DNA from: Tubiluchus corallicola
Lineage: Eukaryota; Animalia; Priapulida
Direction of reading: 5' to 3'
Length of the DNA: 64,000 bases
Assembly: GCA_030141605.1 (NCBI GenBank)
Contig: JAQGDQ010000047.1
Coordinates: 682,001 to 746,000, forward strand
In this document: positions 5,901 through 61,563 of the stretch, piece by piece
How positions within the stretch are numbered: position 1 is the stretch's first letter
How the letters are laid out: every line of letters begins with the position of its first letter
Notes under the pieces: model-generated
The model's database searches: none
Told to the model about the DNA's origin: nothing
Seen by the model: the letters and a program-made list of their open reading frames with translations, nothing else
Made by a program: the position numbers and the translations under genes

Positions 5901-5937
<37 letters not shown>

Positions 5938-25794: not shown

Positions 25795-26032
25795 CTGAGT
25801 GACTTGTTCTTTCCTTTAGCACACCACAAACAGTTTAAGTGATAACAGTAAAATAAACCCAACATACTGAGTGACTTGTTCTTTCCTTTAGCACACCACA
25901 AACAGTTTCAGTGATAACAGTAAATAAACCCAACATACTGAGTGACTTGTTCTTTCCTTTAGCACACCACAAACAGTTTAAGTGATAACAGTATAATAAA
26001 CCCAACATACTGTGTGACTTGTTCTTTCCTTT
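25795..26032. repeat. 72-bp tandem repeat (at least 3.3 copies) running into the assembly gap
   Basis: Unit starts at 25795, 25867, 25938 and 26010 (ctgagtgacttgttctttcctttagcacaccacaaacagtttaagtgataacagtaaaataaacccaacata). Confidence 0.95.
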
Positions 26033-26939: not shown

Positions 26940-27152
26940 GGGAAAGTTTGGCGTGGTAAGGAAAGTAAGGCACAAGTGCACAGATCAGATATACGCCGCA
27001 AAGTTCATTCGAAAGAGGAGGCGAGGTCAAGACGCCAGAGCTGACATACTGCACGAAATAGCTGTTCATGAGATTGCTAAAGATCATTGTAGGCTCATCA
27101 CACTACATGAAGTATTTGAGAACAACCACGAGATGGTGCTGGTATTGGAATA
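26940..27152 (+). CDS. STK17: DRAK/STK17-family Ser/Thr kinase, exon with subdomains I-V
   Basis: tttcag| (R)GKFGVVRKVRHKCTDQIYAAKFIRKRRRGQDARADILHEIAV...EMVLVLE(Y) |gtaagt. Contains the G-loop, the AAK lysine and the DRAK basic loop KRRRGQD. Confidence 0.95.
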
Positions 27153-30100
27153 GTAAGTACATCTTTTCTATAGTAATATCATTTTTTCTGGCTGGCCATT
27201 TCTTTCCGCAGCAGCCATGCTTACATGCATTTATGACGTTGTGTGTGTCATACGTGCTGCTCTAATATACCTTCATCGTAGCACATTTTGTGGGTGTTGC
27301 TATTAATAGCAAGTGTTGTTAGCATTTAAATTCGTTAATTTGCTGTCGCTTGAACTAGATCACTTTAATTTTACTGAAATATGATTGCTGATATTAACAA
27401 TGCTCATAAATTTACTTCATAAATTTACTATCCACATGATGAAATAAGTCTAATGTATGTATGTGTGTTAAAAGGTTTTGAACTTGAAAAGGCTTCTAAA
27501 CGTTTAATAGTTTAACAACATCTAACAAATAAACATCACCATCAAACAGTAAAGCTTGTCCATTTACTATGTGAAAAAGGCGCAAAACATTATTTATCTT
27601 CATCGGTTGGCATGTATGCTAAAATACATTAAATGGGTAATTTTGATCTGAATCGCTCCTTTGGTAAAGGGTAATTGGTGTCGTCGACGATCATGTTTTG
27701 TTACTAAATAGATCTGATTATTGATACTCCTTGGGCAGCAAGAGATTTGTTCCTGCAATGTGGCGAAATTGAAGCCACGTGTGTGAGCGCTGTTAAAAAC
27801 TCGCTCAGCATACCGAAAGAATTCCACGGTCTGATGCAAGCGAAGCACTCGTTCTTACACAAATACCTATGTTAGAAGAGTAAGGGTCCAAATAATTGTA
27901 CGTTGTGTGAACAACGTTTATCGGACACTGAACCTTGCGCTGCTGGTGTGTATATACTATATACGCATATTTTATAATAGTTTTTAAGAACTATATATAT
28001 ATAGGCTTAATTTAAGTAATAAGTATAGTCGACAATGAGGCAAATAATTGAATTTTGAAAACGATTAAATACTTCTATATTGTATAAACGTGGAGGCTGC
28101 AACGTGCCACTTGTGCCATTTTGTGTTATATTTTAACTTTTGTATATGTATATGGACTACGTGTAAATATTCGAAGGTCTTCAAACGCATCCTTTTTATG
28201 CAAAATGTATTATGTTTCTGCTATTGATGTTGCTGTTCAGGATGGACTTTAAGCTTTTAATGCGGTTGCTCATTTTGCTTGCCAGATGACAGCAAGTTTA
28301 AACGAAAGTTTTCCAAGTTTTTCAAGAAACAAACTTCTATCTGTTTTCGTTGCTCTAATCTGTGGTTTTCTGGTCTGCGGCTGGAAGAATCTTTGACGCA
28401 AGCTGTGCGCTTTCCGGTCTCTAAACATGGCGATGTTTGGTGTACCTGGTGTCACAGATACGGGTGCACGTCGTGAGAAAAAGAAAGTTGGCACAGGGCA
28501 GTGAATTCCAGCGATGCCGCGTGCGAATTGATATCATTCATCGGATTTTTCCGCCTTTTTCTCGTCTCCACAGGAACTTCAACAACCGCAGAAGGACCAC
28601 CTGCGGACTTTCACGGCTACCAAAACACTGGCACCGACTGAAAACCTACCCCAAACAAACTGCAGTCGTGTCAACCAAACTGGCCACAAATAGATCGCCT
28701 CACAGAAATGACTGAATTATGGCTGAACTACCCGCTCACGGCTCTGCTGTCCCAGAGAATTTTTTCTCTAACGCTAGTTTATTTGAGTTGAGATTGTGAA
28801 AGTTTTGGAAGACCAGAAGCAATGTGGTCGTCGGATTTTGTTTATGTACGTTTCCTCATATCTGAGATTGCTACCACGTCTTCTTTCAAAGCAGTTCATG
28901 GCCGCAGTAATACAATAATTTCTCTATATTAACTGCATTAAGATATTTGGTCGTGGTTAAAAGACTGCGCTACATCTAACTGGAGTCCATTGGAGAAAAG
29001 ACCAATCTGGCAAACAAATGACGTCAAGCATAACGTCAATCATTCTCGTTGACTAAGATTTTTCACACCTCTGCCGGGCATCTAATACTGTTATGAAAAA
29101 TGCCCAACTTTTCATTAGTTAGCGGGAGAAATATTGGCTTGGCTCTAGGTTTTATTATTGTCGATTGAAATTTCAAGTGAATTAGTGGAATGTTTAATCT
29201 AGTTTCGTTTATTAGAGGAAGAAATATAGAATGGAATGCCAAGTGCAAACTACGGTGACTTAGAGAACCGTTTGTGCATTAGTTATTCTTATTACAATTT
29301 CGTTAACTTCCCTTGACATTTTGGAGTTTGATGGCGTTTTCGCTCTCTGAAGCACTGCTTGGACGTACCAGAAATAGCTGACACCTCTGGCGCCTCTGTG
29401 AGGGATATTCTAATAAAAACTATTCTAGACAGACTTACGAGGTGATAGTCCGATTGTAGATGGTGGGGCCTTGTTTGAACCTAACTTGGAAGTTATACTG
29501 TGGAAATGATACATGTTGACTTTTTTTACAGGTTGAACGAAAGTTCACCCGACGATTTTTGTCATTGGGTGATTGGTGGCTCACCCCAGAATTATTGTCT
29601 TTTGTATCCAAAATGTTGTGGGATATCGGCTCGAGTCCACCCCCACTGAAAACAATTTACTGCACGTTTCAGCAGTTTTCGCCATGTTGTTCATTTTTTC
29701 CTGACTTTCACTTAACGCGGAATGCAATGCTGAGCTGCTGTTGAAAAGAGACGCTGCGGGCACCACAGATCGCTTAACCTTTCCTCGGATGGCTTCAATT
29801 CCTGCCTCATTCTTTCCCCATCGCATGTCATTGTGCAGAAAGAAGGTACATGATTATTGGGAATTTTGGGCCTGCTCCATGAGCTTTTTCTACAGCCTTG
29901 GCTGGCCTGTCGTTTCACCGCGTGTCGCTTTGCTGCCTAACACACGTGCTAGAAAAATAATCTTTTACTGTTTGTATACACGCCGCTATCACCAACTGCA
30001 CATACATATACCCAGTTGCAAATTTCTGAAGTGTCTTCTGTGTGTATAAATGGCTGTCATGTGAGTGGTGAAAATGTGAACCCTTAGATGTATTTGGCTT

Positions 30101-33100
30101 TTTCGTCGGGTACTTTTATGAAAGCGATGTTCAGCAGGAGATATAGCCTTGCTGTGTCACTTTGGGCAATTTGCCATGTTGCGCTTTACCGGTAAATATT
30201 TTCATTACGCGTCTAATGTTAAGCCACTTAGGCCGCCCTGACACGGCAAGGCCAAACAGGCACACGGTCAGTTTGGAATTTGTAAATAGATACGGTAATA
30301 GATAATATATACTTTTAGAAATTTGTGTCGGATATTTGTGTAATTACTAATTTACAAAAATGAGCTACTGCTGTTTACACCATCAAGAGGGCTAAAGCAT
30401 TAACTAAGATTTCATTTTTACAGATGTGCTATTTTAGTACTCGCAGCGAGTGTTTGCGCGTTTAATGTGAATATGACACAATTAGTTTGTGAATTTCTTG
30501 AATTAGTGTGTATTTACACTGCAGAAAAAGGCTTCATAAGTGCATCTATTCAGGTAAATGGTGATAATGCAGACCCTTTGTTCCTTGGCTCAGGACAAGC
30601 TGTCAAAATAAAAGGCACGAATATAAAAGTAGCAAGGATTACACATTGGGATCAGACATCTAAGATCCCAAGCTGATAAGTAAAATGAGCCTAATGAGTT
30701 TGATAAGTAATAATGAGATTGTAAACATGTCAAAAGACTATGAACAGAATGATGTCATAGGCAACATAGATTATGGTAAGATATCACAGATCCCAAGATT
30801 ATGTTCCGATATAGTGTAAATCAAAAGATTGTGAAAATATGTTATGGATTCAGAAATTGTAAGTACATATGACCGACCTAAAGTAGGTCCAAATTTTGTG
30901 AATGGATATCGCAGACCGAAATATTATGATCAGCTGTTTAGACTCAAAAATTGTGATCAGATGTCATAGTCTTAACTATCATAATGAAATGTCACTCAAA
31001 AGTAAAATAAGCAGATGGTACAAACTGAACGACCAATGTGAGGACAAAGATGCTAAAGGCAGAAAATTTACCATACTGAGCACACAAATAAAAAATCAAG
31101 ATAAGTGGCTGGCACTAGTTAACAGGTATCTCTCACAGACTCACAGCAGATAGGCCTATTACCGGCCCATAATTAGGTTAGGCCCAACGTCAACAAGGTG
31201 CTCTAAAGAAGCTTGAAAATCAACATTCCATTGCAGTAATTTATTGCGGTTTTTCTTGTGATAGTAATGTAAACCTCAAGTGTAGTCCCCAAAGTGCGAT
31301 CAAAGCAACGTTCAAGAAAAACTCAGATGTAGTTGGATGAGTATACTTATATCTCTATGAAAGGTTTACTTTGTAAAAAGCCTTTCATGTGGCGTTTTCC
31401 ATAAAAAGTTTTTCTCCAAGAAAATCCTTTAGAAAGCGTTTTCAGATGTAGAGTTTTTCCGATATTCCCTTTAAGGTTCCTCATTTGGTACACTAGGAAA
31501 ACCATTTTAAATCTTTTAAAACCCCTTCTTTTTAACAGTATATCATAAATCGCCATTTCTGTGTTCGACGTTCTGTAGTTGAGTTGACACTTTAGTCAAA
31601 GAATTTTCTGTCTTCTAGTGCTTCTATGCTTCTGATTGTAACTTATTCTCTATACGGATTACAATTAAATAAAAAATAACTCATTGAGAAACTTTGATTC
31701 AAGAATGGTGCCATTTTTACTGAACGATAAACACCTTGCTTCAATTGTAAAATTCGTTAATCATGCTAACTGCAGTAACTGTCGTCATCATGAGTTTACG
31801 TGTAAAATATGTCGTTTTTGTGTCGCCGCCGCCCGTGTTTTCCGTTTATTCGCCCTCGCAAAAATGTGAATAACGTCGCGACGCGCGCAATCATAGTGCT
31901 GCTTGAAATTTTACATTCTTGCGTCTTAAAAACTGCGCGTAATGACTGATAGCTCCTAATTCGCTTTGCCATTAAAACGCGAGTTTATGTTTTACGAAGA
32001 AATTCGGATTATTCACTTTCTTTTGTGCGAGTAAAAAGCGTTTTTGCTGCAGCATATGAAGCCCAGAATTTATTTTATCAGGCATTCCTAATTTATCAGT
32101 TTGAGATACCACATAACAGTAACTGTTCTGTTTTAGAATTTACGGGGCTGTAAATCACTGTTTGACACATGCTGAAGCACTTGGAAGTTTGATAAAAATA
32201 GTTTTACTGACTTCAGAAAAATGCTCAACTGATCCTGCACTTTTCAATTACGACGGGAAATAAAAATTCTTGTAGAAAATAAACTTGCACGTGCAGAAGG
32301 ACGCTTTATATGGAAGTTCGCCTTATAGTGGTATATTCTAACATACTATAAATTTGATGGCCTCTATAATATAGTTAGTTATATAAAGTACTGTGAACAT
32401 TTTTCCAAGGACTTCCGGTTGTATGAATTATACATCCTATGTAAAATATTTCTGTCATAGCCGCAAGGCATGCACACGTATTTTATTTTTGCTAGAGAAA
32501 AGTAATGACTGTCAGCCAAAGGGATACCTCTTCTATATCATCGTCATATCGTCTTCGTCGTCGTCGTCATTACTTTATCAACATGATTAAGATCATCATT
32601 ATCCTTATCAGCACCACCGTCATCGTCACCATTGTCTCGTCGTCGTTTCGTTTTCATTGTAATCATCTCGGACACATCTAGAAAGTAGGACCAGTGGAAC
32701 TTATGCGAGTTTGCAAGCACTTGAAGCAAGTGTGCAAAGAACTTAAGTAGTATATTTTGGTGGGCATTCGGTGACCTTGGTTGAGGAATTCAATTTTGAA
32801 AAAAAATTGTGTTTAGGTGTGTCATTCTTCAAATTTCAGTTGGTCGAGAGATGAAACTGTCCCGTGTATGTATGCGCCTGCTGGTCTTATGGGATACTGA
32901 AAGTGGTGCGGGTACATTAGAAATGCAAACTGCAAAAGTGTACTACGAAAATTGTTTGCAGTAGATATTGTCACTTGTATACACGCAGACTCCTTTGCTT
33001 CCCTTCTCTGAATTACAATTAATCAAGATCAATTAATATTTACACCTGATAAGTCTATATGAGGATTTATGCCCATTTGTAGGTCAGTCGCAGGCAGGAC

Positions 33101-33416
33101 AGGATAGCCAATGTATTACTTTGGTTTGCATTTCCTATGTTACGAATTCCTGGGGTGAATGAGGAATTTTCCCAAATTAAACTCAGGAAGTGCGTACGCA
33201 CGCAAAATTTTACTGGAATGTAGGCCGGGGTTGCATTGACCCTGGTCAAACAATCTGCTGTCGTGTTGGATTTCAACTTGTTCAAGAGTTAATAGCAGTG
33301 ACCTGGTCAGTAAGGATATACATAACATCGGGTATTAACCTGAATTTTTCTGGAAGCATCTGAACTTCAATTAGCTAAGAGTTAAATAGGTAGGTAAACA
33401 GATCACCCACCGAGTT

Positions 33417-33432
33417 TGGCGCCCCCTAGAAG
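33417..33432. promoter_or_regulatory. CTCF-like motif in DRAK intron
   Basis: tggcgccccctagaag matches 13 of 16 positions of TGGCGCCCCCTAGTGG in an AT-rich background. Confidence 0.3.
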
Positions 33433-35114
33433 TGTAATAATGTGTTTTCATGCATACTGATGAAAACTACCGGACGTTGCTCTCTCTCAGCCGCAAACTA
33501 TGCTTCGTTTCTACTACGGTCTTGAGACTGACTGATTGACAGACTCCAGAAATTTGTTGAATGAGTTGGAAATGTCAGTTTACAGCGAGCTTGGAGTGTT
33601 TGTCGTGTTTTAAACATTCGATAATTGCTTAATATAAAAATGCAAATAGAGGTGAAAATCCAACATAGACGCTATCTTTTATGAGTAAGTGCCAAAATTT
33701 CCGCATACTAAATATACTTTGAGAAAAATTCATTTAATAAATGCCTAGTCTTTTTTATACTAAAATGTTCACTCAGAAACTTACAAAAAACGCAGAATGA
33801 CTACAAGCTATAATAGGCCTGAAATAGAAACCTCCGTTATTACCAAATCATTTTTTGGTTTAGAAATACTATAGTCATTAATTAGAAGATTCTCAGAATG
33901 AAACGTATGGAAATATTTTAGTTGGTTATTTACTGGTTGTTTATAATGTTAAAGTAAGTTTGTTTATAATGTTAAAATATGTTTGTTTACATCGCCCTAT
34001 TTCACTGTGTTATTGTACCATGCATTGAACCTTTGTTTAAAAATCTGCAATCTAAGGGTTTTGTTTCTTTGCTTTTTATTTTGCCAATGTGTTTACCTTA
34101 ACTCAATTCTGTGCAATGAACTGTGTGTATTTCTGGTGAGGAAATCTTAGTCTAAACCATACAGTTTCCCAAAGAACATATAAGCCTAACGTTATTATAG
34201 TCAGGGTCCGCGGCTTAATGTCAGCTCCTGCTAAATAATAATTTTAGTAAATTAACGACCTTTTAGTGATCATTTAGAAGATGGAATTAAATTAACCTAA
34301 TTGTACTGAATTAGGTAGTTACTATTACCAGACATACTGTTACCGTAACAACTAGTATTTTTTGTGAACTTGAAAACTCGAATTACAGCAATTATGGTGA
34401 AAATAACCACACGTTCGTGCATTATGTGTGTGCACACTTCCTTTTTACTTTTTTTGTCTGGCGAAAAGCGGTTGAATTTTTTGCATTTTAGTGGCTAAGT
34501 ATTTTAATTGCTATTCCGAATGTCGCGTATCATTGACCTTGTATTTTGCCGTCTGTTTTGTGGTAGAGCGTTCAATTTCCCAAATTCCGTTACGTTTTGT
34601 GACCCATACCTTCAGGCGCTGTCTGAAGAGCGCATTTTTTGCTTTGGTGTGTGAGAAAATATGCAATTTTTACACAAAATGTAAATTCTTTGTGGTGTTC
34701 TGAGATTTCAAGCATTGCAGTTTGCTTAATGGAGCAGATGGCATTTACTGTTTAATTTCCCGTTGAAAGGCCGGAAACTGGTTATGCACTTATATATCTA
34801 TGCTTAATAACAATCGTTGCAATCGAATTGAATTGGTCAGCTTGCATTTCAACTCTTCGAATTCATACTGTCTGGAACGTGTGTCTGGAACAAATGGCTT
34901 CAACCAGCTTCAATCCTCGATTAAAATTTAATGTGAACTTATGTGCTATATCATTTTTTGTTAATTAGTATAAATCAAAGCGAAGTCAGACTTGGAGCCG
35001 AAAAAGTCCAAGAATAACATTGCTGTACTGAAACTTAAGTTATCTACAAAAATTGAAAATTGTAAAATTTAATGGTTGTATATAGTTGCTAAGGTTTTTG
35101 TGTTTTATTTGCAG

Positions 35115-35253
35115 TGCTGCTGGCGGTGAGCTGTTCAACCAATGCGTTTATGAAGACACTTTCAAGGAAAGAGACGTCATCAGACTGATGAGACAAATTC
35201 TTGAATCTCTAGCCTTTTTACATGACAGAAATATTGTGCACCTTGACATTAAG
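35115..35253 (+). CDS. STK17: DRAK/STK17 kinase exon (hinge to catalytic loop)
   Basis: ttgcag| (Y)[46 protein letters not shown] |gtaaat. HLD catalytic loop typical of the DAPK/MLCK group. Not in the ORF track. Confidence 0.95.
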
Positions 35254-38200
35254 GTAAATGACTAAAACTTATCATTAATTATAGTTCAATTATAGACAGG
35301 CTTTGACTTTGCCAAAAAAAATTATTCACTTAGGTCAGGGATCGTCAGTTGGTTAACAGATTTTGAGACACTAGATAAAGCATATAATGGGTGTGAAAAG
35401 TCTTTATTTAGTAAATTCCATCAAGGGGTGTGCGTTAGTTTTGGTATATTAGTTACAAGGTAATATTGTAGAAAGGGCAGCACCATATAAAAGTGCTAGG
35501 GGGCTTGGATGGGGCCACTGATGATTGTGGAAAAGTATTTCGTCTTGCAGAATGACTTCATTCAGTTTGCTTTCAGTTTTACCAGATCATCTATATAGCT
35601 TTCTTGCAAATTGCAAACTATTATCCGATTTGCTTCTACGCTAATTCAGAAGGGCGTACACACTATATATGCCGGACTGGAGATGTTTTGTTTTGATTTT
35701 TTCCTTGTCACTGAGAGAAATTTTTGTCATTTTTGTCACAGAGAAAAATTTTTGTCACCAGAAACTGTGTTAGCAGTATAAGGCTCTGTAATTACTGAGT
35801 CAAGTTGCAAAATGAAGGCCAGTATATCCTTACGTTCACCCAAGAAGCGTTTGTAAACCGGTGGGCTGTCTGTAACAGCAAAAAGCTTTTCCTTGCCTCT
35901 ATGACTATTTATCAAATTTAAATTTTTCATAAAATAATGAACAAAACAATTGGACTGTTAGACCATGAGTAGTATAAATTAACGTAATTCAGTGTTTGAA
36001 CTGCGTTTTAGCTCATTAATCTCTCATTGCTCAATTCCGTCTCAGCTGTCGCAAGGGAGTGGGGGTATTTGGGCAGCTACCGGGTGTAAGTCAATAGCAA
36101 CCAAAGGAACCACCAGTCAAAGGACCACCGGTCAAAGTTTTTATCACTAAAATTAAAGCAAATTGAAAATATCTATTGCATGATAATTATTTTGTGATAA
36201 AAAACAAAAGGGATCTAGGAAACCTTTATGCAAATAACAGGAATTAAGCTGATGAAAATGAGCTTACGTTGTTATGGAAGATTTAGAAATCTTTTGTTCC
36301 AATCTGGTGCATCCTTTGATCCTTTGATTGCCTCCGAGTTACGGTACAGGGATACATATGGGGTGGGGTGAATATCAGCAAAATTGCAAAAAAAGTTGTT
36401 GAGGGCTTTTTATATGGCTCAACCTTTTATGTATAAAATCGTGTTGTACTTGTATAAGGCCTCCATTTTCTCAGACTATACACATCTACAATGTACTTCT
36501 CTTTGACAGGTTTTCTTTTAAGCTTAATAATTATTTTAACTGGAATTAGCTTTAAATAAGCGTGGCTTAGCGTGCGCTCAAACAGGAAGTGGGAGCACAG
36601 TGTTACTAAATCATTTAAAAAGCTTGTTTTGTTGCACGATGCATAGCTTTTGTTTCGCGGTGACATTATTATTCTATTAGAGTTATATAATAGAGTAGAA
36701 TTACCTGTTTGACTGTTTCTGTTTGGTGTATAATGGCTGGCTTAATAACCAAGTAATAAATTATTGTTTGGGATTAGTAATCAAACTGACGCTTGACTAG
36801 GGTAGGATAGGGATGTACGCACGTTTGACTCATCACATTTCATTCCCTTTACAGTGAAGGTTAATTAGTTTAAAATAACTTTTCTTCCCTTTTATAAATT
36901 AATCGTTTTCATAATTTAAACCACACGACGTATTAAAGAGCCCACGCAGGGTTTTAGCGTTAATTGCGAAAACTAAATGTGTTGGCGCCATCGTTGTGTG
37001 AATTTTTTGTGAACATTTAATTTTGTAGGCATTTGTGCGCCATAGGTAGGCCTCTTAAAGGCTTTAACTGGCAATTCTCATGCATCTACCCTTTTTTGAA
37101 CAGGTGATTTAATTAAAATTTGTCAAATTCTTGGCATGTTCTTTTACCTGGTTTTTGCTTGGTGGAACAGGAAGTCATCGTTTGTTATGCTGTTCTATAT
37201 TGGTGTGCACTGTGCAGTTTAAATCTTTCGTCGATCTAATGATCTTTATTTACTTATACTGGCAGATAGCAGTTGATAAAAACCAGCAAGTGTAAGCTAA
37301 ATCGTCCTAGTTATTAAATAATTGAATATGCACTGTAAGTTGTTTGTGGTTTTGAATCATTGTACAAACCGATTTTGTAGTGAAGGTATTTATTTAGAAA
37401 GCTTGTTAAGCACCAGATGGTGGTACTAATGATGATGTTGATAGCCAGATTCTTATTTGGTGCGCAGCGGCTACTAAGCTGGGTGTTTTTTAACAATTTT
37501 ATTTTAAGATTATGCCAACACGAATTGTAGTTGTAGTAATATCACATTCACAATAATCCAATTTGCTGATAGCAAGGTCCATGGTTTTTAGAGACGATAG
37601 ACGATTTTATAAGCTTAATTTGTTTTATTATTAATTGTTTTTATTAACTGGGCTGTAAAAGATAAGAAGCCAGACCAGTTCAGTAACGGGTGTTACTTTT
37701 TAGAATTTGAGCGGGCTATATGAACCTTATTTATGTGATAAAGATGATCTAACTATCTAAAAATACGAAAATTCGAAAAATGTGCGAACATAGGCCACAT
37801 ACAACAGGACTGCAAGACCTATCCAGACCTATTTTGTCAACGTGCCCTTGTACCGTACTTCTTAACACATAATTTCTTTTAATGACGGGCCATTTTCTTT
37901 TTTTTTGTTTTTTCCCATATTCAATTTTTTTTACAAATAATGAGGATACAATACAGTAGAACATATGCGTATCTTCTAAATAGTTGTTTCGTGAAACGTG
38001 ACCACCTTCCTGACCCAGAGAGCGGTGTGTGCACACACGTGCTAGCCAGTGAAAGGTGAGGGTAGACCTCGTACCAGCACACTCGATCTGGTTTTAACTC
38101 AAATTCACACTTCTGTGACAATAAACACACGTTTTACAACCAGATTTGTGGTAAATGTTGGTTTGTGAGCTCAGGCAGATTGTTTAATTTGCAATGACTC

Positions 38201-40144
38201 GACAACAAGCAAAATATCTCATAAACCTATTTTATTTTTCAGAGTGTATGGTTTACTAAATACAATAACTATTTAACAAAACATATATTATATCATGTCG
38301 CACCAGCCAAGTCCCGATTTTATAACGACTTTAAATACATATAAATTCTGAATTTTTGTGCATAATTTTACAGGTAAACTTAAAATATGTTTCTATGGTA
38401 AAAAGAATTTTGTTTTTTATAAGGTTATTGGTTAGACCTAAAAACCAATCTGTATACGTGTAAATTGATTTGCGTTTTTGTGACGTAAACTACCAAATAA
38501 TTAAATTTTATATTTAAAATTATAATAATTTAAATATTTTGCAAGTCCTGGATACACTGTATTAATTTTGAAGGATGAATGTATGGTTACGTATATAATT
38601 ATTTTAAATGTTGCTGTTTCTAATCTCAATCCACACCAGTGAATTCAAGATATACACGTATTTTTTGATTACTTGCTCCATAGAAATCTATCTTATTAAT
38701 ATCGAACACACGTCGGATCTCAGAGGGCAAAGGTGTATTCAACAGAAAAGATTTATAATCGCTGCCTAAATGACAAAACAGCATGCAGAGTAAATAAAGA
38801 TGGTTAATTTGTCAGGTGGATAATACTTGTAGCGAACAACAAATATGCTTCATGTTTCAGTAAACAGCCGGTGGCTGATTCACCTGTATAACGGTTGCTT
38901 GTTTACCTGCGCCTGGCTCTGATTGGTTCATCGATTCTTTATTTTATTTACGACCAGGATAGTCGAGTTTTCCGCCTCTGGGTAAACATAACTTCAAGAC
39001 GGTTGAAGTGATGTAGACCTACTTTTAAACTTTAAGTAACCGAGAAATCTTGGAATTTTGGCTAACCACGACTTTTTTACACGCAAATTTGCCTGCAGTC
39101 TTAGGCTTTCTGTAGCGGCTGGGCTGTAAGACTCTGTCAATTTCTTTTCAGTTTTGATTTATTTTCTATTGTAGATGGTTTTCATTAGATGGTTTTTCAT
39201 GGATGGACGACAGAAGAGAATGTAGTCCAGTATAGTCGTGTTTGTAAAATAATTCCGTTTATTGGTGGGCGATGAAAAATGACGCCTGTGAATTTAGCTG
39301 TCTATTTTGGAATGCATGTTACTCGACAAGGAACACCTAATTTATTTGAGTAAAACTATCGTGTGTGACGTCACTTTTATACCACAAAGCGGCTGTTGAT
39401 TTCAGAATAAGTTAGTTTTACGGGCAAAAATGAATTATTTAAGTCAAGAGCCGGTATACATAATCAGCGAAAAGGAAAAGGTAATGATACCGGAGAATTC
39501 TTTTGGAGAAATCCTACGACCTCCTGCTGACAAAGTTCTCAATGGGGCCTTTACACAGTTTTTGTGGCGTTCAAAAACAACTTTCAAATTCCATTCTTTT
39601 CTTGAACATGAAACTTACTACAATTGAAGCGACGTTCGCCTTGTGAGAATAAGCGAGATGTCCCTGGTTCATATGTACGCTGGGCCTAGACTTTTTCACA
39701 TTTCCAGTTTTTCGTAGAAATTTGGCTTCCAATTCAACAATTACTTCCATCATTTACCGTTCTCAATCAACTACTGTTTAGGCACATGTGGCTCTAACTA
39801 TATGCATGTGAATTAAGACTCCAGGAATGAAAATAAGACAGTTGATCATTAAGTTTCTGTTGTTGAATATCGAATGGAAAACTCTGTTTATTATGTCAGT
39901 AATATCACGTAAAACTATAATGCTAACAACTATGAAAAACTTTCGTAATCCTTTGGGATGTAAAAAAACGTACATCTATACATGCTATTACTATCTATAG
40001 CACGTTATTAAACATGTAAAAAAATCGTCACTTTGTTTAATTCAAACTTCTGAATTTTTCAGGTTATTACATACCATATTTTCCAGAATATACTAAGTAT
40101 CCTATCTAGGCATTTTTGTAACGAGAAAGTTTTTTTTCTTTCAG

Positions 40145-40271
40145 CCACAGAACATCTTGCTCACAAATCCGCTTCCACACGGTGACATTAAGTTGTGTGA
40201 TTTCGGACTGGCGAGATTAGTGGACAGCAGTACTGACTTCCGAGAAATCGTTGGGACGCCTGACTATATTG
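40145..40271 (+). CDS. STK17: DRAK/STK17 kinase exon (DFG/activation segment)
   Basis: tttcag| PQNILLTNPLPHGDIKLCDFGLARLVDSSTDFREIVGTPDYI |gtgagt. Confidence 0.95.
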
Positions 40272-40585
40272 GTGAGTTTCGGTTTTTTTTTTGTTTGCAC
40301 TAAAATAATGTTACTTTATTGTGGCACTACATTTTTGTAGTGAATTTTCCAGAAATCTAAATTTAGTGTATTGAATTGTTTCATTATGCATACTTACAAC
40401 ACACACACACTGTACATTTATACTATATTTAGTTAAACGCTTTTAATGGTAGGCAGACCTAGTTATCTCCATTAGCTCTGTCATTTGAGTGCCAGATGGC
40501 TTGCTTAGGCCATAAAAGTTATGATAGAAATGTAAGCCTAAAGAGGTTTATGCTGGCTTACTCAGGTTTAATTTTTATTTTACAG

Positions 40586-40634
40586 CTCCTGAAATTTTGA
40601 GCTATGAACCAATCAGTACACAGACAGATATGTG
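40586..40634 (+). CDS. STK17: DRAK/STK17 kinase micro-exon (APE to DMW)
   Basis: ttacag| (A)PEILSYEPISTQTDM(W) |gtgagt. Phases are consistent with both neighbouring exons. Confidence 0.95.
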
Positions 40635-41014
40635 GTGAGTGCCAATAAACAACTGCTACCTATAATACATGCTTGGATTTTCCTAAACTAATTTTAATGA
40701 AAGTGTCAACATTTACAGAAAATTAGGGATATTTCTATACATTCCAGGAGTTCGGAAAGATTAGCTGACATTTGCCAGTTATTTTGATTGCTATAAATTG
40801 AGTGTAGGCCTTGTTCTTTCTATTAAGTGTGTAATTCAGTGGTAATGTATTTGGATCATCAGTACTCAGCTATTCAATTTAAACCGTGGATCTTTCTATA
40901 ACAGATTTTTTTTGATGTTTCAATACTCTGCCTATAGCAAATCTGTAGGTGCATAGTTTTAGCTATTTTTATTTTAACAGTTGAACTAAAATTAATGCAT
41001 TTAAACTTTTCCAG

Positions 41015-41194
41015 GAGCATTGGCGTGTTAACTTACGTCATGTTAACGGGCTGTTCGCCGTTCATTGGTGCTTCAAACCAGGAGACCTTTCTCAATATAT
41101 CACAAGTCAATCTCGATTTTCCTGATGAACTGTTTGAACATATATCTCCACAGGCAAAAGACTTTATTTGCCAGCTTTTGCAGTCAGATCCAAG
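41015..41194 (+). CDS. STK17: DRAK/STK17 kinase exon (subdomains IX-XI)
   Basis: ttccag| SIGVLTYVMLTGCSPFIGASNQETFLNISQVNLDFPDELFEHISPQAKDFICQLLQSDP |gtatga. Confidence 0.95.
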
Positions 41195-41472
41195 GTATGA
41201 ATCACAGGCAAATTGTGTGTGTCACGTAGCTGTGAATAGTTCTTCTTATAGGCAAGGCATGATAATGATCTTGTTTTTGAGGCTTGTTCATTTAACGGTA
41301 CTTGCGGGAGCACATAAATGCACGAAAGGAACACTAAATTGAAAAGTCTGAAAATTTTTGCATTTGAGACTCGATTGCGAGATATTCTGCTTTCTGGGCA
41401 GCTATGCTATTCATTATGTCACAGAAATTTATTACACTTTTTTGCAAATTAAAAATATTCTTTGCCTTGCAG

Positions 41473-41668
41473 TGACCGCGCGACAGCACGTGACTGTTTA
41501 AATCATCCGTGGTTATGGCACGACAATCACAACCACCAAGAGACAATCCTGCTAATTACGTCACCAAGGTGCTTACGGCGACCGCATCCCATCTGTAACG
41601 ATGAAACAATGGAGGATGACGTATCACAACCAAAGCGCGCTAAGGTCGATGATGAATTTGTTTACTAG
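41473..41668 (+). CDS. STK17: DRAK/STK17 kinase last coding exon
   Basis: ttgcag| (S)DRATARDCLNHPWL...SQPKRAKVDDEFVY*. The six exons total 904 nt (1 + 301 codons) with no internal stop. Confidence 0.92.
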
Positions 41669-52904: not shown

Positions 52905-55200
52905 CTTCACCTGCCTGTTGCTGAAAATCTTCTTTACAAAGACATCAGGACCTAGAGTTCAACTCGCGTACGGTCCCTTCTCATATTCATTTTAAATTTA
53001 TCGATAGATGGTGCACTGACAGTATCAGCTGAGAGTGAGTTTCATGGACCGGCCACACGAGAGGCAAAAAAATGAGAACGGATGTTGGTTCGGCTATATT
53101 CGATGAAGAGTTTGGAATAATGGTCTCATAGTTCTCTCCATGGTCTTGAGAAGAAATCTTGTTCTTGTAAAAGTGAGACTCTTTTCATAATATTATAATA
53201 GTTGACAAGATCAGCAGCACATCGGCATTGTTCCAAAGTGGAAAACACTGCAGGATCTGCATCATGGACTAGCCTCATACATCTGTCTTGAGTTTTCTCC
53301 AAAGCATCTTCGAGAGTTACATACTGTGGTGACTACACTACTGATGCAAATTCCAAAATAGGACGAATGACTGCTTTGTATAGAAGGACTATAACATTAG
53401 CAGGTTCTTAAAACAACATAACGTTTGACCATACCAATTCGACTATTTGCCTGAGCTATTATATGATTAACATGGGTATTCCACTATAGGTCATTGGATA
53501 TGTACATGCCTAAATCACGTACAACAGAATTCTCTTCTATGACTCCATCACTGATATAATATGGTATGTGAGATTTATTCTGCACACGTAATAAGCAACA
53601 CTTACTTCTCTTAAGTTGCATCAACCATTCATTGCACCATTTTTCAATTTCATTAAGATCATTTTGTAAAATAAATAAATCTAAGTAACCCCAGATTGGG
53701 CGATAGGGCTTAAGATCATGTACAAATAAAAGGATGCTTGTATCAGGAGACACACAATTAGTAATGTCATTTATAAAAATAAAAAGCAGTAAGGACCACT
53801 AAGAGTACCTGGGGGATTCCACTAGCTACTGGTTGCCAGTTTGTAGTTATACCATTCATAACAATTCGTTGTCTACGATGAGTTAAGAAAAAAATCAAAC
53901 CATTTTAATATATTACCATAGATTCCTGAGAACTCCATCTTGAGCAGTAGCCGTCTTAGGGGCACAGAGTGAAAAGTTTTTCTAAAGTCTATTTATAAAA
54001 TATCAATACCAGGTAAGGATGGATCAGCAAAAAATTTAATCCATTCATTTAAGCAAGAGAGTAAATTAGTTACAACAGAGCGATTTGGTAAAGAGCCATG
54101 CTGATTTTTGCAAATACGCTTAGAATTGACAAGAAATAGAAGTACCTCATCCCATATAATGGACTGAAGGCACTTGGTAACAACTGATGTTAAAGAAATA
54201 GGCCTTAAATCATCGCAAGAAGGAGTTGCAGAGAGTTTCTTCGGAACAGGAGTGACATTTTAGTCAAGCCAGTTCAAAGGAACTTTGCAAGAATCAAGAA
54301 TTTCTTAAAAATCAAAAATAGTAGTAAAGCAAGTTGCAGGGCACAGGTTTTGAAAACAAAACATGAATATTGTCCAGGCCTGTGGCTTTAAAAGGCTTTA
54401 ACTTAATGAGCTTGAGATATACCTCATTTATCAAAAAGACAACACTTGGTTAACTATTGCAATTCCAACCATCAGATGGGAACTGTAATTCAATGTTCTC
54501 AGGTTCTTGGGTAAAAAAAGAGGCAAAGTATCATTTATGGTAGAAGCAATAGTGGCAGGATCGCTGACAATCTCTTGTTGTTGATGTACGATACTGCTTA
54601 TACGGTTCGTTTTAAAAAACGTTTGCTGTAACGAAAAATTCCTTGCCATTCTTACTAATTCTACTAGCTAGTTTTTCTTCATACCTTTTCCTGGCATCAA
54701 GAATAGACTGTCTCAATTGTTGAGAAGCTTGCGTATATTCAGCTTTCACACTATTTAAAGAAGTTACACGCCACAAATTCCAGAGGCGACTTTTATTAGC
54801 TTTTGCTTTAATAACAAAAGAATCCCTTTTTCAAGTGGCACAAGCATATTTACGATCATTTGAAGAGGTTCCCTTTAGAGGTACGAAAGTATTTACAGCA
54901 TAATTATATTTATCGTAGAAGTTCCAACAGGTATAATTATATATGGGTATAGTCCACATTCATTATTAGTTTCCGATTTTATTTTTTAACACGCCCCATT
55001 ACATAAAACAAAAGCAACAAAATCCAGAAGCTGGCTCATTTTCGAACCAGGTAAATTAACAAGTTAATTAAACCTTAGGCTTAACTAGGAAATTATACCG
55101 ATTAACACATCCCGCCAAAAACGGATTAAGGTAAAAGCTATACTATTTACATAACGCAAGGAGCATACCTGTTTCTCCCAAAATTTATTATTTGAAACTA
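52905..55200 (-). mobile_element. Degenerate, 5'-truncated CR1-clade LINE (EN remnant, RT and 3' end)
   Basis: Minus-strand remnants with stops and frameshifts: LLFIFINDITNCV..SILLFVHDLK (FADD position), LQNDLNEIEKWCNEWLMQL..SKC, RDLG, YKAVIRPILEFAS, and the CR1-type C-terminus FFASRVAGP*NSL..VSAPSIDKFK. These are followed by a gggacc...ggtcct 3' stem-loop. Boundaries are approximate. Confidence 0.82.
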
Positions 55201-55575: not shown

Positions 55576-58500
55576 CTGCAAATTTTACATATTCCAACAC
55601 TGATACTCTGTGACCCTTCTTGAACATTCAGGTAACACTTTAATTAGACGCTCTCCGTACATTTTTCACCAGCAGACTTCCTAAATTTGCTTGGGTTCAT
55701 CCATACAGCAAGCTACAGTATGGAGGATATCAATTAGAAGCTCCAAGGTTTTGTTACAGATAATAACCAGTGCAAGTAGAGCCCTCACGGCCATAGGAAC
55801 AGACTGTCAGATTAGGAAGGCAAATGAGGCAGATAGGGTAGGGTGGAATAGAACCATTCAAGATTTTGAGGAGTTGTTGGCAGAAGCTCAGAGGAGAACA
55901 AGTAGGACATGCAGTGAGACCACACAGAAGTTTCTTCGATACTGTGCCATCACGTCATTACTGCTCCAGTCTCCGGGACATTTCTCGCTCACATTGGACT
56001 TAAGTTGCATGTTAGGGCTCGCCAACACCAGCAAACACTTGAGGTAGATGATCTTCATACTCTCTAGGCCAGGGAGTAGGGAGTAGAAGCGGGAGATAGA
56101 ATCACTACATCATTTAGTACAAACATTATGATAGTTTTGTTTTAGTAGTAATAGTAGTAAAATATTTATTTGTCATTTTAAAAACATTGACCATAATAAT
56201 GAAAGACAGACGATCAGTGTTAGTTCATATAAAAACATACACTGTTCTGTGCAAATGCGTCTGGTGCAAGCTAAATCATAAGTGCAACTAGAAATTCAAA
56301 AATAAAATATAAACTAGTTTAATAAGGTCTAGGAAAAATGAAATTATGATTTGAGTAAGTATCATCGTGTTCGTATTACGGATAACCAAAACGAGTCATT
56401 AAATGTTTTTTTTAAATTTAGACTTGAATATTGATAAAGAGCTGCTGTGTTTTAGTGATGTCGGTAATGCATTCCAAAGTTGTATTGCTTGTTTAGTAAT
56501 GGAATTCTTTCCATATTGATTGTTCGTTCTAATGTTACTTAAATTTAGTGTTCTGATATTCATACTGGGGTTTTCAAGAAGTGGGAGCTTATTGTTTTTG
56601 AAAGGAGAATTAATATATTTATATTGATATATTTATAGAGAAACAAGAGAGTTTGATAATCTCTGTGGGCTTCTAATATTGGGATTTTCATGGAGTTTCT
56701 TAAAGAAGTGGCAGAATATTTACTTGTATTGTGAGATGATTTCAAAGAATGACCATTAACTAATCATAAAGCACAGTTTTGAAGTACATTTAATTTGATG
56801 TATGACTCTCTTTTCACTTTTTGGAACAGTATGCAGGCATATAAATAATGGGGCAAAATTAAAGTTTTGTAAATTAGAATTTTTGTTTGTTTTGATAGCT
56901 GTCCTCTGATTTGTTGAAGGTACGAAGTACTTAATGTCATTTTTGTAAATGTTGATGAACTGCTCTTCCCATGTAAGCATGTTGTCCAACATAACGCCTA
57001 AGAAATTAACAACTTTTGACGGCACAATAACAGCACTTTCTATTTGCAAGGATGTAGCTGCTGTATTTTCTGTATTGTTAATTGTTGGGGATAATACCAT
57101 AAATTCTGTTTTATCATTATTCATTTTTAGCTTATAATAATTAAATGCCATGTTGATGTTCTTTATGTCTTTTTCTAAGTACTGTTTTGCAATACTGACA
57201 TTCTCGCGAGCCAGATAAATAGTCGTGTTGTCTGCATATTGCGTAATACCTGAACGTTGTAGAACGTTAGAAATATTGTTGATGTAAAGGTTAAACAGTA
57301 GAGGTCCCAACAGTGTGCCCTGCGGGATACCTCATTGAAGGTTAGCCCAATCTGAGAATGCCTCAGAGTTTATTTTAACCTGTTGCTTTCTATTTTGTAG
57401 GTAATCATTAATTAATTTTAATGCTGATTGTTCAAATCTAACTTCTTTCAAATTATCTAATAGTAGTGTGTGATTTAAACTGTCGAAAGCTTTACTTAAA
57501 TCTAGAAAAGCTGCTGCCACATATCTGTTTTTATCAAGATTATCTCACAAATTTTCAGTTACGTTTATTATAGCATCGACAGTTGAATGTTTTTTTTTCA
57601 AATCCGAATTGATGTTTCGATAAGAGTTCATTTTGATTGACATATCTAATAATTTGATCATATATTTTACTCATACAATGAACTATTGATACCAGTCTTT
57701 AATTTATTGGTTCATCTTTAGCATTCTTTTTGTGAATTGATGTAATATTAGCTGTTTTGCATTGATCAGGAAATTTGCCACGCATTATTATTTGGTTAGT
57801 GATATAGGTGATATGTGGAACAATTAAATGCATACTGTCCTTTAGAATTTTTATTGATATGTCAGATGTGCCACTACCTTTAGTGGCATCTAAATTATTT
57901 ATTATTTTTAAAATATCAGCAAAAGTAACGCTGGAAAATGAAAATTGGTTATTTGCAGGTCCTACAGTTTCTAGTTTGTCCTGTATGGTATCAGTACAAT
58001 CATTCTGCAAATTAAAGTTTCCGAGGTTAACAAACGTCTCATTTAACAGGTTTGCAATATCTTTGGGTTTCATTATTGTGGTATTGTTGATTTTAGGTTC
58101 ATTTACCCTATTTTGTTTATTTTTATGTTTATTTATAACATTGTTGATCACTGTCCATTTTTGTTTTGTAGTGGAGGTAATACTGCATTGTTCTTGAATA
58201 TATCTATTTTTTCGAATTTTATTAAGATTGTTGAATTTGTTTCTAGCTTTTTTGTACTTTATGTGGTCGTTTTTAGATTTAGTGTTAAGCCATATGTTAT
58301 ATAAGTTATTTTTATTATTTCTTAAATCATTAAGTTCAACATTTGTCCAATTACTTTCACAATTAAGCTTTGATTTGATGTTCGATTCTTTAACTTTTTT
58401 AAAAGGTGCATGAAGATCTAAGCAGTATTGGATATTGTTTATTAAAATGTCTACTTGAGTGTTTATATTTGTTGCAAGATATATCTTGCTACAGCTCATT

Positions 58501-58685
58501 TTAGCTAAGTCATTTAAAAAGTATGTCTCATTATAGTGTGTGAAATCTCTGAAATTTTTCCAACACGAATTATGATTTGCTGCATTTAAGTGGAATAATT
58601 TATCAGTAGTAATTATGAAATTGTGATCTGAATATTCACAAGGTATACTGTCATGAGCTGTAAATTTGCAAGGGTTATTAGTAAT

Positions 58686-59230
58686 TGTTGGCATCATTCT
58701 GTCTCGGAAGACAATGGGGTGTGCGCCAAGTGAGTCAGTTATTGATCACATTGATGGAACTGCAGCGTCGACTGTGACTGGGCAGTCCGATCTTTGAACC
58801 ACTGGAATGGCGCACGCCTGGGCAAGGTGTAGGAAGATCCTGAGTTGCCTAGACAACAGGAACCCCATCTCTTCCTCCCTGGTGTAGTCCAAGGGAAAGC
58901 GGAGCGATACGTTTGGCACCAGATTGGCTGCAGGAGCTGCCGAAGTCAGTGAGCATGCTGCACTGGTCCGGCTTCGGGGCTCCACTCCTGATTTGGAAGG
59001 TTTACTCCTCTACACATGACCGTTGGGTCACTTGACCTCCTTTGCCCTCTAGCCATTGGCTGCTTGTGCAGCTCTTCCTCCTAGTGTTGAGGCACAGTGT
59101 GGGCATCCCGCAAGCCTACAGCACCTGGTATTTCTAGGCGGTCACCCATTCAAGTACTAACCAGGCTCTACGTTGCTTAACTTCGGTGATCAGACGAGAA
59201 CTGGTGTTTTCAACGTGATATGGCCGTAGT
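58686..59230 (-). mobile_element. 5S rRNA-derived SINE (SINE3 class) with structured body and RTE-like 3' tail
   Basis: Exact 11-bp TSD ttattagtaat at 58675-58685 and 59231-59241. Removing the insert restores the host LINE frame (DHFITN-NPCKF). It has a 5S head, a GC-rich body without an oligo-T run, and the tail ...ccattgtcttccgagacagaatgatgccaaca. Confidence 0.9.
59112..59229 (-). pseudogene. Near full-length 5S rRNA sequence forming the SINE head
   Basis: ctacggccatatcacgttgaaaacaccagttctcgtctgatcaccgaagttaagcaacgtagagcctggttagtacttgaatgggtgaccgcctagaaataccaggtgctgtaggctt is recognisable metazoan 5S with box A and box C. It carries several transition-type changes and no TTTT terminator. 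Confidence 0.93.
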
Positions 59231-60004
59231 TTATTAGTAATGAAATGATCAATTAAAGTAAAAGACGTTTTACTGCACCTTGTTGGTTTATCGTTGTTTA
59301 ATAGTTCCACATTAAATAAATTTAGAAGTTCTTTGTACTTTGCATATGAAACAGTGTTACTAGTAAGAGTGTTAATATTAAAATCGCCCATAATTAAGAT
59401 TTGTTTGTTTTCAAATACTGCTCTTTCTAATTCTATTCCGAAGTATTTAAAAAAAGTTTTTTGGGGGTCTATAAACAGTGCATACTAAGTAATCCGTGAT
59501 GTTGCACCACAGAGATTCAATCTTTCCTGTTTGCATACCCTTTGTTTCTGTGGCTGCGAAATGCGATGGTAAATAGATGGCTACTCCTCCTTTTTTGTTC
59601 TATCCCTTCTGAATAATGTGTGATTTGGTAATTGTATTGAAGTACTTGAAACTTGATATTTAAATTGGAATTACGCATTTTATTTTAAAACATTGGTAAA
59701 CATTATTTGAACACACTGGTAATGGCAAAATGCGCATGTTGACTAGCGTAGAGCTTATTCATGAAATTGTTTAGTTTCTGCACTGTAACGACACAAAATA
59801 ACTCTGGCCGATTGTCTTCGGAACCATGGATGTAGCTACAAAGCGCAGTGAATGGAGGCGCTCTCTGCAGACGAAATTCAACATGAAAATGGTGGAGTTG
59901 CAAAGCTTTCGAAAGTTCCATAAAAGAAAACCGAGTTTTAGGTTTTCAGACAAAAAGATTTAATTCAAAGCTAGTTTCATCCTTATTATGGCAGGTTAAT
60001 ACGT

Positions 60005-60313: not shown

Positions 60314-61563
60314 TAGTGGAGAGCAACTACTACGAGAAATCGAATTTGAATGGAATTGAATTAAGATTTTCGAAGAAGTATGTGCAAGAAAAATTTTGTA
60401 GTCTGAGATGGCGAAGACTGTACATGTAACATGACAATTAACTTACCACTAAGACTGTAATGCTTGATTTGTTTATCTAAAATTAAGAAACACAATTCAA
60501 ATGAATTTATAGTAAAAATAATTTGGTGCACTTAGCAATTTAGTGAATTTTTGCCTTACTGTATTTTAAATGATATGTTCAAGGATAACCCATTGTTTTG
60601 CACATCTAAAATTGTATATTTTATTGCTCGTCTTGCAAATTGCCTTTGGTGACTCATTATGCTTAAAGGAGAGACCAGGCCTTCTGGATCACCAGGTTTA
60701 TTTCAATATTCGCAAAAATGTTAGAATGTTTAAGTAATAAAACTGCAATAAGTGCTTTATGTAATTAGTAAAATCACTTTAAAGTTGCGATCATTTCATG
60801 CTTGGGCACTCCCATTTTCAATGCCCATTTTTCTTCCAATGATGTCATTCATCCTAAACAAAAGCAGCACGCTGTCAGTTTTTCATCAAAAGCATAACTT
60901 AAATTTTTATAAAATAATTAGCTTAGATAGTTAATTTTGTAATATTTTTGTGTGAACATTAGGTAAGCTGCAGAAATTTGAATTAGTTTTGTAAAGCGCG
61001 CTTGCGAAAATCCACGGTGAGCTTATGAAAAGTCACGAATTCTCCCAGTTAAGTCAAATTTTTGAAGTGAATGGCAGAAACCACCATGCCTGAAAATTTC
61101 TATTCAGAAGAATTATGTTTTAAATTTATGCTTTATAGCCAGCTTTTTGCAAATTTCTTTAATATATTTTTCTAAGTTTAAGTGATAACAGTAAAATAAA
61201 CCCAACACACCGAGTGACCTATTCTTTCCTTTAATACTAGGTAAGTACCTGGTTTTACAGGCCATGCCAAGGAGGCATATATAACATTTCTTAATTAGAA
61301 GGCAGACAGTCGCCATTGCTGACTCATTTGCCACTCTTACTACTTATTTCATACTTGCAAGCAGCTTGCAGAGATTGCGCATATTGATTTTGTAAAAACT
61401 AGTAATAATATGTTAAAAAATAGTGTACAAGAATCACAGGTAAATTGTTTTGACTGCTAGCTTAAAAGTTAAATGAAAATAATTTGGGTGCTGCATTATT
61501 TTAGTTTATTTTTGGTTTGAGTTTGAGGTTTAAAGTTTTTCGAATTGAATTGCTCAACCCTTT
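60314..61563. mobile_element. Old hAT-like non-autonomous element hosting a nested MITE
   Basis: Degenerate TIRs tagtggagagcaa / ttgctcaaccctt with tcgaatt subterminal words at both ends. Candidate 8-bp TSD gttataat (60306-60313) / cttataat (61564-61571). Confidence 0.45.
60667..61230. mobile_element. Kolobok/T2-like MITE (TTAA TSD, AGG...CCT termini)
   Basis: TTAA at 60663-60666 and 61231-61234. The ends align without gaps over ~40 nt as imperfect TIRs (ttaaaggagagaccaggcc...ggtttattt versus reverse complement ttaaaggaaagaataggtc...ggtttattt). Confidence 0.7.

What the first reader, a model, noticed from the sequence alone, without database searches (positions are those of the whole stretch)
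58675..59241. Chimeric 5S rRNA-headed SINE with RTE-like body and tail, cleanly nested in a LINE endonuclease domain
Seen: a 545-bp insert with an exact 11-bp TSD. It has a virtually complete 5S rRNA including its 3' end, fused directly to ~425 bp of GC-rich sequence with no Pol III T-run. It ends in a tgtct-tccg-agaca stem-loop (58700-58713) and a short CAA-type tail. Established: 5S-headed SINEs are rare relative to tRNA-headed ones (zebrafish SINE3 has a CR1-type tail; springhare Ped-1 has a bipartite RTE/BovB part), and RTE-mobilised SINEs often carry both 5'- and 3'-derived LINE segments. From memory, not from a search: the tail (ccattgtcttccgagacagaatgatgccaac) resembles RTE-clade 3' ends, and body words (ggagtaaacc, ggagtggagc, ctcctgcagcc, tggtgccaaacgtatcgctc, ttggactacacc) resemble RTE 5' UTRs. 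Inference: a possibly undescribed invertebrate SINE3 family that uses a type-1 Pol III promoter and RTE machinery, and is unrelated to the LINE it landed in.
Basis: partly seen in the sequence, partly recalled or inferred. Interest (0 to 1): 0.8.

Follow-up and report, generated by a model that had tools for sequence, protein, structure and literature searches.

The report
Abundant 5S-headed SINE with RTE ends
This 545-base insert is one copy of a highly repeated short jumping element in an invertebrate that is likely not an insect: a whole 5S ribosomal RNA sequence joined to pieces of both ends of an RTE-type retrotransposon, whose enzyme likely copies it, a design already known from fish, reptiles, a rodent and moths.

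Summary
The insert is 545 bp between exact 11-bp duplications, with a complete 5S head (Rfam 101.7 bits); removing it restores the host LINE's frame.

It is a family, not a one-off. In two public runs, summed depth over the insert is hundreds- to about a thousand-fold that of the flanks, both ends show many different flanks, and the empty site is present.

The RTE link is now tested. Three body words match the RTE-12_AMi 5' UTR. The 3' part encodes the C-terminus of single-ORF endonuclease-RT proteins (19.0 bits; best of 500 shuffles 6.9). 7 of 11 metagenome loci with the tail motif carry that C-terminus just upstream.

Not shown: the partner RTE itself, Pol III transcription, other copies' duplications, the host phylum, or that the runs are this species.

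The design is known (CoeSINE5, SINE-1_Pmo, Ped-1, moth HaSE3), and this scan noted it in planarian-like genomes. I found no description of this family, but Repbase, Dfam and SINEBase could not be searched. Verdict: new member of a known kind.

The parts
58686..59230 (-). SINE copy, 545 bp
   Evidence: Bounded by TSDs; depth step at both edges and empty-site joint skipping 556 bp in runs X1 and X4
59231..59241 (.). Target-site duplication, 5' side of the element
   Evidence: Exact 11-mer; 'both = 11' at the empty-site joint
58675..58685 (.). Target-site duplication, 3' side; in element sense it starts with A
   Evidence: 10-12 bp is the commonest RTE length and A the usual first base for (CAA)n tails (PMC6007223)
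59113..59230 (-). Complete 5S rRNA-derived head without a T-run terminator
   Evidence: Rfam RF00001, 101.7 bits, model 1-120
59140..59182 (-). Predicted type-1 Pol III internal promoter: box A about 59168-59182, IE about 59160-59165, box C from about 59151; this copy has a change at 59150
   Evidence: Motif positions; box assignment recalled. At 59150 most depth in X1 and X4 carries the letter that matches the Rfam consensus G
59009..59112 (-). Linker of unassigned origin, part of the family unit
   Evidence: Covered at family depth in X1 and X4; X5 loose ends resemble it by eye up to about 59054; no Rfam match
58874..59008 (-). RTE 5' UTR-derived segment; words at 59008-58999, 58988-58976 and 58942-58933
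   Evidence: Same three words in the same order in RTE-12_AMi 134-237, the last two 46 nt apart in both (PMC5786205 supplement); run X5 holds 58874-59030 at about 80-88%
58735..58831 (-). Remnant of the last codons of an RTE reading frame (zinc-knuckle end, SKIGLPSHSRRCSS) with stop TGA at 58735-58737
   Evidence: 19.0 bits against a profile of 32 full-length EN+RT C-termini; 500 shuffles max 6.9; only hit in the window
58686..58734 (-). RTE-type 3' UTR with hairpin 58700-58713 and CAACA end
   Evidence: The 19-mer occurs in 11 metagenome loci; 7 have the RTE C-terminus upstream and several end in CAA repeats
56153..59700 (-). Host LINE, decayed, likely CR1-group; endonuclease split by the insert (5' limit approximate)
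   Evidence: PF14529 and RVT_1; AATAAA plus TAC-repeat end at 56170; clade by recalled C-terminal and tail features, no tree

Best explanation
This is one copy of a highly repeated SINE3 family made of a whole 5S rRNA head, a piece of an RTE 5' UTR and the last codons and 3' UTR of an RTE, likely transcribed by RNA polymerase III and likely copied by an RTE enzyme. Shown: the unit, its boundaries, its repetition with many flanks, the empty site, and RTE ancestry of both LINE-derived parts. Inferred: Pol III starts at 5S +1 from the internal A-IE-C promoter and, with the native terminator gone, reads through to the next T run (166 nt past the tail at this locus). An RTE endonuclease-RT then recognises the 3' hairpin and CAA end and inserts a copy by target-primed reverse transcription, leaving a TSD of about 11 bp. 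The family likely arose when a 5S RNA was joined by template switch to an internally deleted RTE. Landing in the CR1-like LINE was incidental.
For: Depth: X1 0.55-2.15 million over the 11 insert bins against 760-10,660 over the 19 flank bins; X4 30,000-132,000 against 44-475 (summed contig depth, not a copy number). Loose ends of low agreement (0.41-0.47) in X1: 27 contigs at 58685, 29 at 59229, 51 at 59230; in X4: 13 at 59229. Empty-site joint in both runs. The 5S bins and the junction bin have the same order of depth as the body, and one listed X1 contig (59051-59201) bridges the junction with more than 31 letters a side. RTE 5' words. RTE C-terminus. Loci fetched by the DNA tail motif alone carry it too: 7 of 11 at E <= 0.001, best L003 at 51% over 117 aa. 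The proteins are single frames of 1,037-1,132 aa with EN+RT; 4 named cluster mates in 2 of 10 clusters are 'craniofacial development protein 2-like'. Majority letters at 58793 and 58781 move the peptide toward the RTE motif. Run X5 holds the 5' UTR segment and the tail at similar depth, with little between.
Against: No autonomous RTE with both parts was recovered, and no loose end listed for X1 or X4 leads into an RTE frame (12 of 215 rows shown). No RNA evidence was obtained. No genome is held, and there is no second copy in the 64-kb window. No run holds half of the sampled words (best 0.42). This copy differs from the X1/X4 majority at 22 listed sites plus a cluster at 58798-58811 (about 4-6%), more than the older host LINE does (14 of 482 letters in X1), so the runs may be a related species or another subfamily. 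This copy's box C is altered at 59150. The RTE clade call has no tree with labelled references, and the protein chain was seeded by an alignment that included the window peptide.
Confidence: 0.84

Rival explanations
1. A non-autonomous, internally deleted RTE that uses its own Pol II signals or neighbouring transcription and carries the 5S sequence as a passenger.
For: Mid-body depth (1.8-2.1 million) is somewhat above 5S depth (1.3-1.6 million) in X1. Some loose ends at 59006 and 59041 suggest headless or 5'-truncated copies. Bipartite RTE derivatives are thought to be Pol II-transcribed (PMC5786205). Type-1 promoters are said to be weak once retroposed (PMC3272025).
Against: The many different flanks begin at 5S +1 (80 contigs at 59229-59230 in X1), and the majority keeps the consensus box C letter. 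Bipartite non-autonomous LINEs usually keep the LINE's own 5' end, whereas here the 5' end is 5S.
Confidence: 0.09
2. A one-off or low-copy chimera in this genome: a 5S RNA joined to an RTE fragment during this single insertion, with the abundant family present only in the related organisms of runs X1 and X4.
For: Single copy in the window. No whole genome to count in. This copy is 4-6% from the runs' majority.
Against: The same unit with the same two boundaries is highly repeated in runs whose host LINE is about 97% identical to the window's. An independent identical fusion is implausible.
Confidence: 0.04
3. A displaced 5S rDNA unit whose spacer contains RTE-derived sequence.
For: The 5S part is complete and scores far above the family threshold.
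Against: There is no terminator after the 5S. The unit has a TSD and a LINE-type 3' end. Flanks differ at both ends and no head-to-tail joint is among those listed (15 of 43 joints shown).
Confidence: 0.02

Closest known systems
CoeSINE5 (coelacanth) and SINE-1_Pmo (python): 5S + RTE 5' + RTE 3' (PMC5786205; text parts 1-4 of 5 and supplement parts 1-3 of 15 read)
   Same: Same three-part layout; CoeSINE5 also ends in CAA repeats.
   Different: 225 and 241 bp against 545. Their RTE parts come from other RTE lineages, with no shared body or tail by eye. No reading-frame remnant is described for them.
HaSE3 (Helicoverpa armigera) and other lepidopteran SINE3s (PMC3272025 and PMC10886601, passages)
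   Same: Invertebrate 5S-headed SINE with RTE 5' and 3' parts and an RTE partner.
   Different: 349 bp; divergent 5S head conserved mainly at the promoter; body shared with a tRNA SINE; different RTE sequences; reported as low copy.
Ped-1 (springhare; named in PMC5786205 and PMC10946416, original paper not seen)
   Same: 5S head on a bipartite RTE part.
   Different: Mammalian and BovB-derived (recalled); sequence not compared here.
OegopSINE (squid Ceph-SINE) and RTE-12_AMi (PMC5786205 supplement)
   Same: Carry the same stretch of RTE 5' UTR.
   Different: OegopSINE has a tRNA + CORE head and an unrelated 3' end; RTE-12_AMi is an alligator LINE whose 3' end I could not see.
Zebrafish SINE3 (Kapitonov and Jurka 2003; seen only as cited)
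   Same: 5S head.
   Different: Mobilised by the CR1 clade (PMC7245038), not RTE.

Membership tests
SINE3 (5S-headed SINE) | 5S rRNA-derived 5' head with internal promoter boxes | tested here: met
   Rfam 101.7 bits, full model; box positions recalled; majority letter at 59150 matches the Rfam consensus
SINE3 (5S-headed SINE) | Short, non-coding, dispersed multi-copy unit of constant structure | tested here: met
   Depth step and many flanks at both ends in X1 and X4; that these runs are the window's species is not shown
SINE3 (5S-headed SINE) | Target-site duplications, variable between copies | tested here: inconclusive
   Exact 11 bp here, confirmed by the empty site; no other copy seen with both flanks
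SINE3 (5S-headed SINE) | Transcription by RNA polymerase III | not testable with these tools
   No RNA data laid; lack of a T run is not significant
Bipartite RTE-derived SINEs (Kojima 2018) | Middle segment from an RTE 5' UTR | tested here: met
   Three words in order, matching RTE-12_AMi 134-237 as printed; compared by eye, only about 100 nt of that UTR visible
Bipartite RTE-derived SINEs (Kojima 2018) | 3' end from an RTE 3' end | tested here: met
   C-terminal profile hit; 7 of 11 tail loci carry the C-terminus; RTE label from architecture and names, no labelled tree
Bipartite RTE-derived SINEs (Kojima 2018) | A resident autonomous RTE sharing both parts | tested here: inconclusive
   Not recovered; no genome held
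CR1-mobilised SINE3 (zebrafish type) | 3' tail shared with a CR1-group LINE | tested here: not met
   No similarity to the host LINE's end; the tail follows an RTE-type C-terminus. Only this one CR1-like LINE was compared
5S rDNA repeat unit | T-run terminator after the gene and tandem arrangement | tested here: not met
   No T4 after the 5S; single copy with TSD and varied flanks

The most novel reading that the evidence does not exclude
This is an undescribed, very abundant SINE3 in an animal group with no SINE3 on record, and it succeeds because it keeps a complete, foldable 5S RNA. The head would still bind TFIIIA or ribosomal protein uL18 and bring the SINE RNA to ribosomes that are making RTE protein, as Alu uses SRP proteins. 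That would explain why it escapes the low copy number expected of 5S-promoter SINEs.
Probability: 0.1. Interest if true: 0.65.

Novelty: new member of a known kind. Interest (0 to 1): 0.3.

Why it matters
Reviews list 5S-derived SINEs as 2.3% of SINEBase, known from reptiles, insects, fish and mammals (PMC10946416). A highly repeated family in a likely non-insect invertebrate widens that range and adds another independent join of a 5S head to RTE ends. It is unusual in keeping the whole 5S and the last codons of the RTE frame, which point to the donor lineage. In practice its copies would be mis-annotated as 5S rRNA genes and could mislead 5S FISH or copy counts, and presence/absence sites like this one are usable markers. 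No new mechanism is shown.

Tried and rejected
No whole genome is held. BLAST of the element against the window found no second copy. No RNA holder was listed in the run search; this says nothing on expression. Eighteen rows with small word shares (0.05-0.10) were listed; only X5 and X9 were laid, and the rest are no evidence. A body 17-mer in prokaryote genomes gave 73 hits against 69 expected by chance; none extends. Viral collection: 5 hits that do not extend, 1 chance hit (L090), and 2 scans with none. A homolog search with a 53-aa piece of L003 found nothing, and its Atlas hit was uninformative. No ribozyme or other Rfam family matched the body. Alignment folding of nine tails gave only the 5-bp hairpin, which is invariant because it was the search motif, so there is no covariation evidence. 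CpG decay explains 2 of 22 differences from the majority. The kinase tree did not fix the phylum: long branch, and no arthropod, gastropod or amphioxus rows. Motif searches found nothing in the supplements of PMC7245038 (2 files), PMC10886601 (1 file) or PMC10294476 (12 of 33 files). The scan's earlier findings had no look-alike sequence. Horizontal transfer was considered and not supported or excluded: X5 holds only parts, at about 80-88%, and its organism is coded.

Full report
Observation. The sequence shows an exact 11-bp repeat at 58675-58685 and 59231-59241 around 545 bp on the minus strand. It is the only exact 11-mer pair at that spacing in the window. Rfam matches 5S rRNA over the whole model at 59113-59231, 101.7 bits, the only gathering-level hit in 64 kb. 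The remaining 426 bp are 55% GC. Removing the insert and one repeat opens the host frame through the site; the host has an endonuclease-like part before it and RT after it.

Is it a family? No genome is held and the window has no second copy, so I used public runs. With the body as query, 22 of 24 listed rows held some words, best share 0.42. Four runs were laid on 58186-59685. In X1, summed depth is 0.55-2.15 million in the 11 bins over the insert and 760-10,660 in the 19 flank bins; in X4 it is 30,000-132,000 against 44-475. By hand the medians differ about 430-fold and 1,100-fold. The tool warns that this is no copy number. The step falls at both TSDs. Loose ends with agreement near 0.4 sit at 58685 (27 contigs) and 59229-59230 (80 contigs) in X1 and at 59229 (13) in X4, which means many different flanks. 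Both runs hold the empty site, a joint that skips 556 bp with 11 letters fitting either side. The 5S, junction and body bins have similar depth; of the 8 X1 pieces listed, one bridges the 5S-body junction by the 31-letter rule.

Caveat on the runs. The host LINE in X1 differs from the window at 14 of 482 letters in its three listed pieces, and in X4 at 28 of 850. This SINE copy differs from the majority at 22 listed sites plus a cluster at 58798-58811 (one search's table was cut). The insert is younger than the LINE copy yet more distant, so the runs are likely a close relative or are dominated by another subfamily. Abundance in the window's own genome is inferred.

The 5' LINE part. One of six body words searched in the supplement of Kojima 2018 (PMC5786205) hit the printed alignment of RTE-12_AMi 134-237. 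By eye, that stretch shares three words with the element in the same order: GGAGTAAACC at 59008, GGAGTGGAGCCCC at 58988 and CGGCAGCTCC at 58942. The last two are 46 nt apart in both. Run X5, another organism, holds 58874-59030 at about 80-88% and the tail at similar depth, with little between. This fits both parts coming from one RTE lineage but does not prove it. The 104 nt after the 5S remain unassigned.

The 3' LINE part. The tail 19-mer gave 11 metagenome loci. One frame of the element at 58738-58848 ends in SKIGLPSHSRRCSS and then a stop. An alignment of this peptide with three locus peptides found 8 proteins. One of them, P0127, found 292 longer relatives, of which 120 were listed and 32 were at least 1,030 aa. 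All six scanned have endonuclease plus RT. A profile of the last 70 residues of the 32 scores the element at 19.0 bits; the best of 500 shuffles is 6.9 and nothing else in the window scores above zero. Because the chain was seeded with the window peptide, the more independent test is the loci, fetched by DNA motif only. There 7 of 11 carry this C-terminal region in the 600 nt upstream at E <= 0.001; L011 has a similar tail but no hit; L002, L006 and L010 look like chance. The RTE label rests on three things: the single EN+RT frame typical of RTE (PMC1291365, passages); 4 cluster mates named 'craniofacial development protein 2-like', where the ruminant BCNTP97 gene holds an RTE-1 endonuclease (PMC12129022, passages; that CFDP2 is this gene is recalled); and the RTE-labelled 5' match. 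No labelled RT tree was built. An 11-bp TSD starting with A after a CAA end fits RTE (PMC6007223, abstract and sections 15-16), though one site proves little.

Host LINE and organism. The host RT is 25-31% identical to the RTE set, whose members are a median 65% identical to P0133 in RT, and the host C-terminus does not fit the RTE profile. Its end (AATAAA, TAC repeats) looks CR1-group by recalled features. An STK17-like kinase lies at 26938-41650. After one fish row, the best named hits to one exon are bivalves at 71-73%, with no arthropod name among the 120 listed. A 38-row tree put the joined exons on a long branch beside deuterostome rows and inside no sampled group. The host is likely a non-insect invertebrate; the phylum is unresolved.

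Mechanism. Shown: unit, boundaries, repetition, empty site and RTE ancestry. Inferred: Pol III starts at 5S +1, where the varied flanks begin. It reads through to a downstream T run (first at 58520). An RTE protein binds the tail and inserts the copy by target-primed reverse transcription. Origin by template switch onto an internally deleted RTE follows Kojima's model. This copy has a change in box C at 59150 that the majority lacks, so it may be silent. Against or open: no partner RTE with both parts was found, no RNA was examined, and other copies' TSDs were not seen.

Comparison and novelty. The layout 5S + RTE 5' + RTE 3' is described for CoeSINE5, HaSE3 and SINE-1_Pmo, with Ped-1 listed among bipartite SINEs. 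Their printed sequences (Ped-1 not seen) share neither body nor tail with this element by eye. Kojima 2020 places SINE3 in vertebrates and some insects (PMC7245038, passages), and a 2024 review lists reptiles, insects, fish and mammals (passages). Eight paper searches aimed at 5S SINEs (listings only, some cut at 30 rows) showed no title or abstract describing this family. Passages of three mollusc papers gave no such SINE. Repbase, Dfam and SINEBase could not be searched; 21 of 33 supplements of PMC10294476, those of PMC11481361, and Kojima's figure S4 (held as 3 lines of text) were not seen and may bear on novelty. This scan has noted the same design in planarian-like genomes and a Rex1 version in fish (unchecked notes), with no look-alike sequence.

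Verdict. A real and abundant SINE3 family of a known design, probably undescribed as a family. Its distinctive points are the complete 5S head, the length, and the retained end of the RTE frame. Novelty: new member of a known kind. Interest 0.3.

Noticed in passing
window 11093-11124 (-): A 32-nt stretch 81% alike to the 5S box A/IE region of the element, with no Rfam hit nearby; possibly the decayed head of another 5S-derived repeat.
   Followed up: partly
window 26938-41650 (+): Six exons of an STK17/DRAK-like kinase, about 60-65% identical to animal homologs and on a long branch.
   Followed up: partly
run X9 laid on window 59138-59228: Another organism has many 5S-like copies with varied 5' flanks (53 contigs at 59228, agreement 0.45) and little of this body; possibly dispersed 5S copies or a different SINE3.
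   Followed up: no
run X5 laid on window 58874-59030, 58686-58735 and 59145-59185: Another organism has a repeat sharing the RTE 5' segment and the tail, and separately a short 5S promoter core in foreign context; whether these are one element is unknown.
   Followed up: no
window 58730-58835: Runs X1 and X4 show variants here: the majority differs at 58798-58811, and some contigs lack 50-120 nt of the reading-frame remnant, suggesting subfamilies.
   Followed up: partly
window 5733-6216: A 484-bp imperfect palindrome (84% self-complementary), MITE-like.
   Followed up: no
window 25791-26032 and 61175-61233: A tandem repeat of about 72 bp beside an assembly gap, with a related single unit at 61175.
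   Followed up: no
window 53484-53798 (-): A fragment that reads like the RT region of a second decayed LINE; no Pfam hit at E 0.01.
   Followed up: partly
L001 and L007: RTE 3' remnants lie next to homologous membrane-protein-like reading frames in two metagenome contigs, suggesting an old shared insertion.
   Followed up: no
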